DNA of 64,000 bases, taken from NCBI GenBank assembly GCA_951406725.2, contig OX597814.1, positions 99,014,001 through 99,078,000 on the forward strand. Direction: 5' to 3'. The DNA is from Octopus vulgaris (taxonomy: Eukaryota). Numbering within the stretch: position 1 is the stretch's first letter; each line of letters opens with the position of its first letter. Below the pieces are notes generated by a model. That model had not been told where the DNA came from. It saw nothing but the letters and a program-made list of their open reading frames with translations, and made no database searches. Below are positions 16,952 through 51,149 of this stretch, piece by piece. Made by a program: the position numbers and the translations under genes.

Positions 16952-16989
<38 letters not shown>

Positions 16990-17200
16990 ATATAGGGTGG
17001 CAAAAGATTTCGTAGAATTTATTTGCCACCAGCGGCCTAGTGGGAAAAAATTAAATAGTCATAGACCATTTATAAGTTCAACATCACAATCAAGGAATGG
17101 CCATAATAGGCCATTCACCCACTAGAAATAACAGCCAAAGCTTCAACCGCAAAATAACATTAATTCCGCAAACCAGGAGAAAATTAAAAAAACATTTACC

Positions 17201-17313
17201 CTGTAATTTCTTATACGATGCACCGTTTCATCTATTGTTTAATGGTAAACTAACCTGATTAAATTAAATCAAGCCAATCTTCCATAGGCCGATAGATTCG
17301 TCAGTAAGAACAG
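17201..17313 (-). ncRNA. Type I hammerhead ribozyme, copy 1
   Basis: Minus strand: ctg-ttctta CTGACGA atctat..atagat GAAA cggtgcatcg TA taagaa-atta-cag. Core intact and stems I, II and III all pair. Confidence 0.88.
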
Positions 17314-17685
17314 CCAGATCCGAGCAGATATTATCACGAGGCACCTCTATCCCTGCCTCGGCAATATCTGACCTAAAATTTTCAAATCATCGCACTCGCG
17401 CCAAATTTATCGGCAGCAAATATAAGCCGCTAATTCCATTACGGAATTAACCAGAAAATTCATAATTAATCAATATAGGGTGGCAAAAAATTTCGTAGAA
17501 TTTATTTGCCACCAGCGGCCTAGTGGGAAAAAAATTAAATAGTCATAGACCATTTATAAGTTCAACATCACAATCAAGGAATGGCCATAATAGGCCATTC
17601 ACCCACTAGAAATAACAGCCAAAGCTTCAACCGCAAAATAACATTAATTCCGCAAACCAGGAGAAAATTAAAAAAAACATTTACC

Positions 17686-17798
17686 CTGTAATTTCTTATA
17701 CGATGCACCGTTTCATCTATTGTTTAATGGTAAACTAACCTGATTAAATTAAATCAAGCCAATCTTCCATAGGCCGATAGATTCGTCAGTAAGAACAG
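17686..17798 (-). ncRNA. Type I hammerhead ribozyme, copy 2
   Basis: Same motif as copy 1. Confidence 0.88.
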
Positions 17799-18168
17799 CC
17801 AGATCCGAGCAGATATTATCACGAGGCACCTCTATCCCTGCCTCGGCAATATCTGACCTAAAATTTTCAAATCATCGCACTCGCGCCAAATTTATCGGCA
17901 GCAAATATAAGCCGCTGATTCCATTACGGAATTAACCAGAAAATTCATAATTAATCAATATAGGGTGGCAAAAAATTTCGTAGAATTTATTTGCCACCAG
18001 CGGCCTAGTGGGAAAAAATTAAATAGTCATAGACCATTTATAAGTTCAACATCACAATCAAGGAATGGCCATAATAGGCCATTCACCCACTAGAAATAAC
18101 AGCCAAAGCTTCAACCGCAAAATAACATTAATTCCGCAAACCAGGAGAAAATTAAAAAAACATTTACC

Positions 18169-18281
18169 CTGTAATTTCTTATACGATGCACCGTTTCATC
18201 TATTGTTTAATGGTAAACTAACCTGATTAAATTAAATCAAGCCAATCTTCCATAGGCCGATAGATTCGTCAGTAAGAACAG
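18169..18281 (-). ncRNA. Type I hammerhead ribozyme, copy 3
   Basis: Same motif as copy 1. Confidence 0.88.
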
Positions 18282-18750
18282 CCAGATCCGAGCAGATATT
18301 ATCACGAGGCACCTCTATCCCTGCCTCGGCAATATCTGACCTAAAATTTTCAAATCATCGCACTCGTGCCAAATTTATCGGCAGCAAATATAAGCCGCTG
18401 ATTCCATTACGGAATTAACCAGAAAATTCATAATTAATCAATATAGGGTGGCAAAAAATTTCGTAGAATTTATTTGCCACCAGCGGCCTAGTGGGAAAAA
18501 ATTAAATAGTCATAGACCATTTATAAGTTCAACATCACAATCAAGGCCGCTGGTGGCAAATAAATTCTACGAAATTTTTTGTCACCCTATATTGATTAAT
18601 TATGAATTTTCTGGTTAATTCGTAATGGAATCAGCGGCTTATATTTGCTGCCGATAAATTTGGCGCGAGTGCGATGATTTGAAAATTTTAGGTCAGATAT
18701 TGCCGAGGCAGGGATAGAGGTGCCTCGTGATAATATCTGCTCGGATCTGG

Positions 18751-18863
18751 CTGTTCTTACTGACGAATCTATCGGCCTATGGAAGATTGGCTTGATTTAA
18801 TTTAATCAGGTTAGTTTACCATTAAACAATAGATGAAACGGTGCATCGTATAAGAAATTACAG
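18751..18863 (+). ncRNA. Type I hammerhead ribozyme, inverted copy (predicted cleavage after GUA at 18850)
   Basis: Plus strand: ctgttctta CTGACGA atctat...atagat GAAA cggtgcatcg TA taagaa attacag. Confidence 0.88.
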
Positions 18864-18889
18864 GGTAAATGTTTTTTTAATTTTCTCCA

Positions 18890-18948
<59 letters not shown>

Positions 18949-26545: not shown

Positions 26546-26901
26546 CCTATCTATCTATCTATCTATCCATCTACACACACACATACACGCAGGTGATCAC
26601 TTCGACATATTAATCTGGCACACCGTACACCTGTATGGTTTGATGGAGGAAGTGTACGATTGATGGGGGAAGTGAACTACTGCGCAGCACAACCATGTGA
26701 TTGCTATAAAGAAATCGTCTGGGTGGCTGTTCAGCAAGAAATTGCGTAACTGTTTTTCTCGGACTCGAGTGACCATCATTAGTGTATACGATTGAGTAAA
26801 CAACACATATGACACTTGCCCCTCTCGATATATATATAAATATATAAGCAAAATAGTTAAAAAGTTTCTCTAAGAAATCAAAAATAGTTACTATATTGAG
26901 A

Positions 26902-27142
26902 AGTAATGTTTATCGCCACATCAAAATGGCTGTTCCATAGGAATCAACGTTACTACCGCCTCAGGAGGACCCTCCTCCAGCTGGTTATCAATGCAATCTG
27001 CACCCGATATATATTGCAAGCAGGGGAGCGAACCCCTACCATCTTTCAACAACCTGTTGGAGGAGGCTCCACTTGTGGTTAAAAGCGATAGTAATGTCAG
27101 TTCCTATGGAATAGCCATATTGATGTGACGATGAACATTACT
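26902..27142. repeat. About 240 bp fold-back (long imperfect inverted repeat, MITE-like or inverted element termini)
   Basis: agtaatgtttatcgccacatcaaaatggctgttccataggaa pairs with ttcctatggaatagccatattgatgtgacgatgaacattact, plus inner stems. Confidence 0.85.
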
Positions 27143-31449: not shown

Positions 31450-31668
31450 GTATTTGTTTCAGCCATTTGACTGCGGCCATGATGGAGCACCGTGTTTAGT
31501 CGAACAAATCGACCCCAGGACTTATTCTTTGTAAGCTTCGTACTTATTCTATATGTCCCTTTTGCCGAACCACCAAATTACAGGGACATAAACACACCAA
31601 CATCGGTTGTAAAGCGATTGTTGGGGGACAAACACAGACACACAAACACAGACACACACACACACACT

Positions 31669-31706
<38 letters not shown>

Positions 31707-31867
31707 GGTGCAGGAGTGGATGTGTCATAAGTAGCTTGCTTACCAACCACATGGTCCCGGGTTCAGTCTTACTGCGTGGAATCTTGGGCAAGTGTCTTCT
31801 CCTATAGCCTCGGACTGACCAAAGCCTTGTGAGTGGATTTGGTGACGAAAACTGAAAGAAGCCCGTC

Positions 31868-31921
<54 letters not shown>

Positions 31922-32335
31922 GACGGGCTTGTTCTAGTTTCCGTCTACTAAATCCACGCACAAGGCTTTGGTTGGCCCCGGACTATAGTAGAAGACACTA
32001 GCCTAAGGTGCCACGCAGTGGGACGGAACCCGGAATCATGTGGTTTGGAAGCAAGCCTCTTAGCACACAGCCACAAATATATGTGCGTAAATATAAGCCT
32101 CCCACCAATACTATGGGCTCTTTTGTCGAACCGCTAAGTTACGGGAATGTAAATACACCAACATCGGTTGTCAAGCGATAGTGGGGAACAAACACAGACA
32201 CACAAACATATACAATGGGCTTCTTTCAGTTTCCATCTACCAAATCCAGTCACAAGGATTTGGTCGGCAAGACTTGCTGTGGGACTGAACCCGGAACCAT
32301 GTGGTTAGGATCAAGTTTCATACCACACAGCTACA
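31450..32335. mobile_element. Nested and inverted family-A SINE cluster
   Basis: A minus copy (31450-32075) is split at its internal microsatellite by a plus-strand 5' half (about 31708-31870). A further minus copy lies at about 32115-32333. Confidence 0.82.
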
Positions 32336-40513: not shown

Positions 40514-41006
40514 TAGGTCGTTCGCCCTCATTAGGTCATTCGCCCTCATTAGGTCATTCGCCCTCATTAGGTCATTCGCCCTCATTAGGTCATTCGCTCT
40601 CATTAGGTCATTCGCCCTCAGGTCATTCGCCCTCAGGTCATTCGCCCCCGTTACATCATTCGCCCTCATTAGGCCATTCGCCCTCATTAGGCCATTCGCC
40701 CTCAGGTCATTCGCCCCCGTTACATCATTCGCCCTCATTAGGTCATTCGCCCCCGTTACATCATTCGCCCTCATTAGGTCATTCGCCCTCATTAGGTCAT
40801 TCGCTCTAATTAGGTCATTCGCCCTCATTAGGTCATTCTCTCTCATTAGGTCATTCGCCCCGTTACATGATTCGCCCTCATTAGGTCATTCGCCCTCATT
40901 AGGTCATTCACCTCCGTTACGTCATTCGCCATTATTAGGCCATTCGCCCTCATTAGGTCATTCGCTCTCATTAGGTCATTCGCCTTCATTAGGCCATTCG
41001 CCCTCA
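40514..41006. repeat. 18 bp minisatellite (ttaggtcattcgccctca), about 28 units, fused to a minus-strand SINE at about 40295-40513
   Basis: Units directly visible, with 15 bp and ttacatcatt variants. Confidence 0.95.
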
Positions 41007-50147: not shown

Positions 50148-50187
<40 letters not shown>

Positions 50188-50191
<4 letters not shown>

Positions 50192-50742
50192 TAGTTATCG
50201 CCATACTAATATGGCAGTCTTATAAATATAAGACAAAAGCTGTCGTTGATTAGCTCCATGAGGCCATCGCCTCAAGCTAGCTATTTGACACACAACCTGC
50301 GTCCATTATAAACCTTCGAACAGGGGAGGTCAGCCGCTTCATCCTGCCAGTCAGACAGCTGCAGACATGTTTCAGGGTATTTGCCCTTTATCAATGCAGC
50401 GTAGTCAGGCACAGCAGGTGTCGCTACTGACTGTCACTGTTCGAAGAATCTATTTACCTAGTTTCAGTGGAATACATCCACTTGTTTTCAATAATAGAAA
50501 TATTAAAATTACTAAGTCTCTCTAACGGAGATTACGGCAGCGTTACTGGAAATTAATAGTTATCGCCATACTAATATGGCAGTCTTATAAATATAAGACT
50601 AAAGCTGTCGCTGATTAGCTCCATGAGACCATCGCCTCTAGCTAGCTATTTGACACACAACCTGCGTCCATTATAAACCTTCGAACAGGGGAGGTCAGCC
50701 GCTACATCCTGCCAGTCAGACAGCTGCAGACATGTTTCAGGG
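50188..50742 (-). mobile_element. Partial tandem (365 bp period) hammerhead-bearing element, retrozyme or Penelope-terminus-like
   Basis: 50188-50377 is repeated at 50553-50742 with few substitutions. It starts in a (TA)n and has many hairpins. Confidence 0.85.
50358..50400 (-). ncRNA. Minimal type I hammerhead ribozyme, U3-A8 variant
   Basis: Minus strand: gctgca TTGATAA aggg-caaata-ccct GAAA catg TC tgcagc. 6 bp stem I, 4 bp stem II, palindromic stem III and a GUC site. Confidence 0.8.
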
Positions 50743-50747
50743 ACAGT

Positions 50748-51149
50748 CAGGAGTGGCTGTGTGGTAAGTAGCTTGCTAACCAACCACATGGTTGCGGGTT
50801 CAGTCCCACTGCGTAGCATCTTGGGCAAGTGTCTTCTGCTATAGCCCCGGGCCGACCAATGCCTTGTGAGTGGATTTGGCAGACGGAAACTGAAAGAAGC
50901 CTGTCGTATATATGTATATATATATGTATGTGTGTGTTTGTGTGTCTGTGTTTGTCCCCCTAGCATTGCTTGACAACCGATGCTGGTGTGTTTACGTCCC
51001 CGTCACTTAGCGGTTCGGCAAAAGAGACCGATAGAATAAGTACTGGGCTTACAAAGAATAAGTCCCGGGGTCGATTTGCTCGACTAAAGGCGGTGCTCCA
51101 GCATGGCCGCAGTCAAATGACTGAAACAAGTAAAAGAGAGTAAAAAGAG

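What the first reader, a model, noticed from the sequence alone, without database searches (positions are those of the whole stretch)
50188..50742. Second ribozyme element of different sequence: 365-nt period with a U3-A8 compensatory hammerhead
Seen: 1.5 tandem units. The minus-strand core is UUGAUAA rather than CUGAUGA, so both partners of the 3-8 pair have changed together. Stems are perfect and stem III is the palindrome CAUG. The unit is hairpin-rich (gccata/tatggc, gtcttat/ataagac, gaggc/gcctc, cttcgaacag/ctgttcgaag, cagtcag/ctgactg). The second copy ends inside the ribozyme, where a young SINE begins. Known: C3-G8 is a Watson-Crick tertiary pair, and U3-A8 variants occur naturally. Inference: a second retrozyme or pLTR family at the same locus.
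Basis: partly seen in the sequence, partly recalled or inferred. Interest (0 to 1): 0.75.

Follow-up and report, generated by a model that had tools for sequence, protein, structure and literature searches.

The report
Penelope-borne retrozyme with U3-A8 hammerhead
This is one copy of a dispersed, non-coding 365-base jumping-RNA family with a well-formed hammerhead ribozyme fold (predicted, not shown, to cut itself), likely moved by Penelope retrotransposon enzymes; it is a known kind of element, but its insertions follow a strict rule (the two back-to-back arms start at two different fixed points in 64 of 65 cases) that hints at how Penelope enzymes copy RNA.

Summary
Observation confirmed: 1.52 units of a 365-nt repeat (50187-50742) with a minus-strand type I hammerhead (50400-50358), core UUGAUAA, palindromic stem III ACAUGU. 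The U3-A8 pair is inherited, not local: 36 of 38 copies in 30 loci carry it, and a distant, whole-unit-homologous 355-nt sister family keeps C3-G8 while stems I, II, III covary (10 of 17 pairs). U3-A8 is already published for Penelope hammerheads and is the commonest core of this motif class in this genome, including an intact Neptune-type Penelope element. The family (3,717 exact hits of a 24-nt hairpin) shows the Penelope footprint: (TA)n targets, partial tandems up to 5.5 units, head-to-head arms, two fixed 3' ends 62 nt apart. New detail: 64 of 65 two-armed insertions have one arm from each start site, and arms of one insertion resemble each other most, suggesting one RNA copied twice by a dimeric enzyme. 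This copy has lost nearly all of its second arm to a SINE and holds only one whole ribozyme. Cleavage, circles and the partner enzyme are untested. Verdict: new member of the non-LTR retrozymes; modest interest.

The parts
50154..50188 (.). (TA)n target microsatellite at the element's 3' end
   Evidence: 157 of 198 arms with a fixed 3' end abut TA-like repeats
50187..50742 (-). Retrozyme arm, 1.52 units of 365 nt; RNA sense is the minus strand; 3' end at the proximal start site (50187-50190)
50200..50234 (-). Two small hairpins just inside the proximal reverse-transcription start site (likely part of the enzyme recognition region; inferred)
   Evidence: 24-nt hairpin has 3,717 exact genome matches, control 0
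50314..50446 (-). Long stem (50314-50323 with 50437-50446 and inner pairs) that presents the hammerhead at its tip
50354..50406 (-). Type I hammerhead with stem I extension: GAC/GUC helix, UAC/U internal loop, stem I 50400-50395/50363-50358, core UUGAUAA 50394-50388 (U3 50394, A8 50389), stem II 50387-50374 with loop CAAAUA, palindromic stem III ACAUGU 50370-50365, predicted cut 50364/50363
50491..50552 (-). 62-nt 'tail' segment between the two fixed 3' ends of the family (distal site at unit position 302 = 50491), here internal to the tandem
50723..50742 (-). 3' half of a second hammerhead (CCCU GAAA CAUG UC UGCAGC) with an intact cut site 50729/50728 but no core
50738..50750 (+). Inversion junction: CAGGG microhomology plus 8-nt relic of the head-to-head second arm (RNA-sense CAGGGACAGTCAG, unit ~250-238), ending in CAG shared with the SINE
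50748..51149 (+). Young SINE copy lacking its first ~5 bases; independent element that replaced the second arm

Best explanation
This is a 5'-truncated insertion of a non-coding, 365-nt non-LTR retrozyme family with a covarying U3-A8 type I hammerhead, likely cut by that ribozyme and likely copied into (TA)n repeats by a Penelope-like (Neptune-type) reverse transcriptase-endonuclease. Shown: the unit, the fold's covariation, dispersal, (TA)n targets, two fixed 3' ends, partial tandems, head-to-head arms, one arm per start site. Inferred steps: (1) tandem copies are transcribed; two ribozymes pair through the ACAUGU palindrome and cut, giving 365-nt monomers that are ligated to circles; (2) a dimeric Penelope protein cuts both strands of a (TA)n tract and primes cDNA from each 3' end on one RNA, one at the distal and one at the proximal internal site; (3) copying runs round the circle (or along an uncut tandem), past the cut site, for up to 5.5 units; (4) the two cDNAs join by 1-12 nt microhomology, giving head-to-head arms. 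Here the proximal arm (556 nt) survives and the distal arm was almost wholly lost at a CAG microhomology with a SINE. With one whole and one half ribozyme, this copy could cut only the upstream site in cis and would need another transcript to release a monomer. U3-A8 is likely derived from C3-G8 in this lineage.
For: Dispersal and youth: all 40 scored of 2,698 candidates hold 92-100% matches; sister subfamily B 98-99%. Core: UUGAUAA in 36 of 38 ribozyme copies from 30 loci. Homologous family D (355 nt; local score 126 against shuffle maximum 42; nhmmer E 1e-79 with a profile that included D copies) reads CUGAUGA in 20 of 22 core matches from 18 of 30 loci (two overlapping loci counted twice); a still more distant relic also has CUGAUGA (L128). 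Covariation on 12 sequences of four subfamilies: 96% of cells paired, 10 of 17 pairs changed on both sides, 3-8 is U-A in 7 and C-G in 5, palindrome AU to GC in B. Genome-wide pattern counts (control): U3-A8 5,217 (691), C3-G8 2,806 (360), C3-A8 686 (329), U3-G8 656 (395). Dimer fold -29.6 kcal/mol against -6.5 for the active monomer fold. Ends: 191 of 216 arms end at one of two sites; 64 of 65 classifiable head-to-head pairs are distal+proximal, 1 distal+distal (84 pairs after dropping 3 duplicates; 19 with an unclassifiable end); 57 of 84 junctions overlap by microhomology. Arms of one insertion differ by 1.0% against 2.6% between loci in B (36 pairs) and 3.9% against 7.4% in A/C (31 pairs). 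In 5 loci the arms share no sequence. 124 of 191 arms pass the cut site, 33 pass it twice or more, 2 end there. An intact pLTR-ORF(RT, Cys linker, GIY-YIG)-pLTR element exists in many copies with the same footprint: (TA)n, two ends 40 nt apart, one of each in 3 of 3 two-armed loci, core UUGAUAA + ACAUGU, distal end ...CUAUUAU as here. Literature: PMC11167929 (two internal start sites = tail, both strands extended, predicted dimer), PMC8557442 (tail at one end, (TA)n bias), PMC7229834, bioRxiv 2026.07.22.740005.
Against: No cleavage, transcript or circle was shown; laid runs were contigs of guessed kind and settle nothing. The Neptune pLTR does not align with the unit (score 33 against shuffle mean 31), so the partner is a candidate by footprint only; only 150 of 6,136 GIY-YIG candidates were scored and 50 loci examined. 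The minimum-energy folds of monomer, dimer and circle pair UUGA(U) with (C)AUGU instead of leaving the core open (-30.0 against -29.6 for the dimer). A10.1-U11.1 (C.A in family D) is a weaker base for stem II. In PMC11167929 ribozyme mutants did not affect insertion in vitro, and in the bioRxiv paper 8 of 9 tested elements did not cleave. Copies are related, so pattern counts and covariation cells are not independent events; part of the locus sample was chosen for a full unit or intact ribozyme (hairpin-chosen subset: 25 of 25 classifiable pairs distal+proximal). Arm similarity could also come from gene conversion or two RNAs of one source locus.
Confidence: 0.7

Rival explanations
1. Same Penelope-dependent element, but the template is an uncut linear tandem transcript; the hammerhead is slow or serves only to free the RNA from read-through transcripts or to dimerise it, and circles are not the intermediate.
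For: Arms pass the cut site freely and do not end there, which fits uncut RNA as well as circles. PMC11167929: unprocessed RNA was the main substrate and ribozyme mutants inserted normally. Inactive folds are about as stable as active ones.
Against: Stem and 3-8 covariation across deeply diverged lineages shows selection on the whole catalytic fold. Mussel and coral retrozymes of like size form abundant circles (PMC7229834). Repeated 5' truncation from linear templates would erode tandems unless something regenerates them.
Confidence: 0.2
2. The repeats are pLTR fragments of an autonomous Penelope element not yet sampled, i.e. ordinary 5'-truncated insertions.
For: Footprint identical to autonomous elements; most GIY-YIG candidates unexamined; bioRxiv 2026.07.22.740005 derives retrozymes from pLTRs.
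Against: Long arms run into further units, up to 5.5, not into an ORF; no homologous pLTR in 50 Penelope loci (the three distant hits were separate old insertions).
Confidence: 0.06
3. A DNA-level satellite or MITE-like repeat whose inverted arms arise by fold-back or recombination; the ribozyme is a relic.
For: Inverted termini and TA-rich targets resemble MITEs; PMC3846280 proposes self-priming for Penelope inversions; arms of a locus are alike.
Against: Ends are polar (fixed 3', scattered 5'); single-armed copies are common; in 5 loci the two arms share no sequence, which fold-back cannot make; the ribozyme covaries.
Confidence: 0.04

Closest known systems
Non-LTR retrozymes of animals (Cervera & de la Pena 2020, PMC7229834; mussel 350-390 bp and axolotl 330/350 bp units)
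   Same: Non-coding tandem unit of 355-365 nt, one type I hammerhead per unit with 6-bp stem I, 4-bp stem II, weak palindromic stem III, highly paired predicted circle, co-occurrence with Penelope elements.
   Different: U3-A8 core in the younger subfamilies; no sequence link tested; expression and circles not shown here; here the insertion footprint (two fixed ends, head-to-head arms, (TA)n) is mapped, which the passages read do not report.
Penelope-like element hammerheads, incl. the U3-A8 variant of Schistosoma mansoni Cercyon (Cervera & de la Pena 2014, PMC4209133)
   Same: U3-A8 instead of C3-G8 (about 1,300 hits there), palindromic helix III, predicted dimer cleavage.
   Different: Those are minimal ribozymes (long helix II, short helix I, extra base after A9) in pLTRs of coding elements; this one has canonical helix sizes, an extended stem I with internal loop, and sits in an ORF-less tandem.
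EN+ Penelope-like elements (Neptune, Poseidon; Frangieh et al. 2024 PMC11167929; Craig et al. 2021 PMC8557442; Arkhipova et al. 2013 PMC3846280)
   Same: Partial tandems, inverted 5'-truncated arm, two internal start sites giving a tail at one end, (TA)n bias, microhomology joints.
   Different: No ORF; tail 62 nt rather than 30-40; the papers say the tail is 'often' or 'optionally' at one end and found no strand difference in start site, whereas here one-of-each holds in 64 of 65.
Xenopus retrozymes as non-autonomous Penelope derivatives (Li et al., bioRxiv 10.64898/2026.07.22.740005)
   Same: Same conclusion on dependence on Penelope elements.
   Different: Their evidence is co-occurrence and pLTR homology in vertebrates; here homology to a pLTR was not found and the evidence is the insertion footprint in an invertebrate.

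Membership tests
Type I hammerhead ribozyme | Conserved core (3-9, GAAA, NUH) with three helices, helix I open | tested here: met
   only core change is the 3-8 pair
Type I hammerhead ribozyme | Watson-Crick 3-8 pair | tested here: met
   U-A here, C-G in homologous family D; paired combinations far outnumber mismatched ones genome-wide
Type I hammerhead ribozyme | Rfam hammerhead model match | tested here: not met
   no hammerhead family among 6 weak hits (models need not cover this variant)
Type I hammerhead ribozyme | Site-specific self-cleavage | not testable with these tools
   needs an assay
Non-LTR retrozyme | Short non-coding tandem unit with one type I hammerhead per unit | tested here: met
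   family level: arrays to 5.5 units; this copy has only one whole ribozyme, so it fails the two-ribozyme 'active' criterion of the bioRxiv paper
Non-LTR retrozyme | Dispersed multi-copy mobile family without LTR features | tested here: met
Non-LTR retrozyme | Expressed as monomeric linear and circular RNA | tested here: inconclusive
   no RNA holder on record; only contigs of guessed kind
Penelope-mobilised element | Two internal 3' ends (tail), partial tandem, inverted 5'-truncated arm | tested here: met
Penelope-mobilised element | AT-rich / (TA)n target | tested here: met
   157 of 198 arms
Penelope-mobilised element | Co-resident autonomous EN+ element | tested here: met
Penelope pLTR (part of an autonomous element) | Flanks an RT + GIY-YIG ORF or is homologous to such a pLTR | tested here: not met
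   50 loci of 6,136 candidates examined; not exhaustive

The most novel reading that the evidence does not exclude
Penelope insertion works by asymmetric twin priming: a protein dimer cuts both DNA strands and its two reverse transcriptases start on one retrozyme RNA (a circle) at two different fixed sites, one each, which explains the one-ended tail, the head-to-head arms and the more-than-unit copies in one step; this family is the first retrozyme tied to Penelope enzymes by footprint, and its U3-A8 and C3-G8 sister lineages give a natural test set for core covariation and palindrome-restricted dimer cleavage.
Probability: 0.45. Interest if true: 0.62.

Novelty: new member of a known kind. 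Interest (0 to 1): 0.4.

Why it matters
The ribozyme variant itself is known. What adds value is that the family answers, by insertion anatomy, a point the retrozyme papers leave as a suggestion (which enzyme moves animal retrozymes), and that the one-arm-per-start-site rule (64 of 65) is a sharp, countable constraint on the unresolved Penelope mechanism. A 363-nt young subfamily and an intact co-resident Neptune-type protein make both directly testable in the published in vitro priming assay.

Tried and rejected
Rfam: no hammerhead hit; the weak Hairpin-meta2 hit (E 0.11) rests on the shared CUGAAACA and is rejected. C3-G8 version with this family's stem II: 0 matches; the C3-G8 relatives have a different stem II. 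A 5'-end hotspot just upstream of stem I (unit 214-216), seen in ribozyme-selected loci and suggestive of a transcription start, is not supported in the hairpin-selected sample (5 of about 98 arms at 209-218); rejected as selection. Idea that the SINE was co-inserted as the second arm: disfavoured, since a relic of the true second arm precedes it and the SINE has its own repeat tail; not excluded. Descent of the unit from the U3-A8 Neptune pLTR: no alignment; shared U3-A8 is likely convergent because the outgroup families are C3-G8. Distant profile hits beside Penelope ORFs (L120, L123, L128) are separate insertions, not pLTRs. No RT remnant in the window; no tRNA gene called. Expression: no RNA holder listed; contigs of guessed-RNA runs cover parts of the unit but cannot show ends, strand or circles. 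Earlier scan notes: nothing found. Lunse et al. (PMC5785218) was not held.

Full report
Observation. The window holds 556 nt (50187-50742) of a 365-nt repeat, the two copies differing at 5 of 188 sites. The minus strand 50400-50358 is a type I hammerhead: GCUGCA UUGAUAA AGGG caaaua CCCU GAAA CAUG UC UGCAGC, predicted cut 50364/50363. The named hairpins exist and the unit folds at z = -6.0; the ribozyme stretch alone does not stand out (z = -1.3) and Rfam misses it.

Family. The unit has 2,698 first-look candidates, of which 40 were scored, all with 92-100% matches; the 36-nt core has 144 exact copies (control 0) and a 24-nt hairpin 3,717 (control 0). Subfamilies: A (window), B (362-363 nt, 84-87% to A, copies 98-99% alike), C (361 nt, 88%), and D (355 nt, aligned over the whole unit, score 126 against shuffle maximum 42). 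UUGAUAA is in 36 of 38 ribozyme copies of 30 A loci; D reads CUGAUGA in 20 of 22 core matches, found in 18 of 30 loci with one array counted twice; a more distant relic is also C3-G8. On 12 sequences of four subfamilies 96% of cells pair and 10 of 17 pairs change on both sides, including 3-8 (U-A 7, C-G 5), the stem III palindrome (ACAUGU to ACGCGU) and a 3-bp helix beyond a conserved UAC/U loop in stem I. That loop and the CAAAUA loop II resemble the Schistosoma tertiary-contact motif (recalled, untested). Related sequences inflate these scores, but the slid controls fall to 25-53% paired. So U3-A8 is a real, inherited compensatory change, likely derived from C3-G8.

How special is U3-A8? Not very. 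With one loose pattern the genome gives U3-A8 5,217 (control 691), C3-G8 2,806 (360), C3-A8 686 (329), U3-G8 656 (395); these count copies, not events. PMC4209133 (parts 1-2 of 4 read) reports about 1,300 U3-A8 motifs tied to Schistosoma Penelope elements. Searches for the term found only that paper and PMC3884650 (listing only).

Insertion anatomy. Of 216 distinct arms, 191 have their RNA 3' end at one of two sites 62 nt apart (unit 296-312: 92; unit 358-8: 99; other 25), and 157 of 198 such arms abut TA-like repeats (before the last removal of duplicates); 5' ends scatter. Of 84 head-to-head pairs (3 duplicates dropped), 65 have both ends classifiable: 64 distal+proximal, 1 distal+distal, none proximal+proximal (binomial 2e-18 if sites were chosen independently); in the subset chosen only by the hairpin, 25 of 25. 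57 of 84 junctions overlap by microhomology. In 5 loci the distal arm stops before the proximal one begins and the arms share no sequence. Arms of one insertion are more alike than arms of different loci (B 1.0% against 2.6%, 36 pairs, one duplicate kept; A/C 3.9% against 7.4%, 31 pairs, confounded by subfamily). 124 of 191 arms pass the cut site, 33 at least twice, 2 end there; the longest is 2,000 nt (part of the sample was selected for full units).

Partner. A GIY-YIG search (150 of 6,136 candidates scored) led to many intact copies of a pLTR-ORF479-ORF781-pLTR element with RT, a cysteine linker of the Neptune type and GIY-YIG (clade assigned from the linker as described in PMC8557442, no tree made). 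Its pLTR has UUGAUAA ... GAAACAUGU, two 3' ends about 40 nt apart into (TA)n, one of each in 3 of 3 two-armed loci, and a distal end ...CUAUUAU like this family's. Its pLTR does not align with the unit and no homologous pLTR appeared in 50 Penelope loci. It is a candidate partner, not a shown parent.

This copy. It starts at the proximal site in (TA)n. The break at 50742 is an inversion point: CAGGGACAGTCAG (50738-50750) is the family's opposite strand, so 8 nt of the second arm remain before a SINE that has 98-99% relatives and lacks its first bases. The rule predicts a lost distal arm of about 314 nt. One whole and one half ribozyme remain, both cut sites intact: cis pairing could cut only 50729/50728; a monomer needs a partner RNA (inference). 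The double hammerhead scores -29.6 kcal/mol against -6.5 for the active monomer, but a misfolded dimer scores -30.0.

Mechanism. Inferred: tandem transcript, dimer cleavage, circle, then priming by a Penelope dimer from both cut DNA strands at two internal sites of one RNA, and microhomology joining. PMC11167929 (parts 1-2 of 4) shows two internal start sites matching the genomic tail, extension of both strands and a predicted dimer, but also that ribozyme mutants insert normally. PMC8557442 and PMC3846280 (passages) describe the tail as often or optionally at one end, and the latter favours self-priming. PMC7229834 (passages and Discussion) defines animal retrozymes and names Penelope elements as a strong candidate; bioRxiv 10.64898/2026.07.22.740005 (parts 1-3 of 5) links them by pLTR homology and found cleavage in 1 of 9 elements. 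PMC6765202 was seen as passages. I found no report of this family or of a strict one-of-each rule in searches (listings); Lunse et al. 2017 was not held, and unread supplements of the 2014 and 2020 papers may list cephalopod motifs.

Expression could not be judged.

Verdict. New member of the non-LTR retrozymes with a known core variant; interest 0.4, resting on the Penelope footprint and the one-arm-per-site rule rather than on U3-A8.

Noticed in passing
window 16986-18890: Unrelated 483-nt ribozyme repeat: 3.2 units plus a head-to-head inverted arm between (TA)n tracts; core CUGACGA, long loop II, stem III ACGGUGCAUCGU. Its two outward ends appear about 190 nt apart in the unit.
   Followed up: partly
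window 26857-27142: Old, diverged relic of the same retrozyme superfamily (nhmmer E 5e-8).
   Followed up: no
L114:244-5460 (G000:C6:133343000-133350000): Young, intact Neptune-type Penelope element with a 479-codon upstream ORF overlapping the 781-codon RT-EN frame (possible frameshift or intron) and a U3-A8 hammerhead in its pLTR; many near-identical copies.
   Followed up: partly
G000:C1:19219672, C1:66782281, C2:85858310; L134, L177: Another hammerhead family occurs with C3-G8, U3-A8 and, in at least three identical copies, U3-G8: a possibly amplified wobble intermediate of the 3-8 switch.
   Followed up: no
family D, e.g. L192:1523-1677: Base of stem II (10.1-11.1) is mostly a C.A mismatch in D, A-U in A/C and G-C in B, a natural series for ribozyme strength; B, with G-C, has the longest arrays.
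   Followed up: partly
arms in L221-L286: 5' truncation points are somewhat enriched at unit 91-150 (21 of 68), the entry to the long stem that carries the ribozyme, as if reverse transcriptase stalls there.
   Followed up: partly
L120:750-943, L123:5776-6021, L128:5-463: Further distant lineages of the superfamily; those in L120 and L123 seem to lack the ribozyme core.
   Followed up: no
window 31451-32334: SINE pieces in inverted orientation around a (TA)n tract, giving a false microRNA-like hairpin hit.
   Followed up: no
window 40514-41006: 18-nt minisatellite, 27.9 copies.
   Followed up: no
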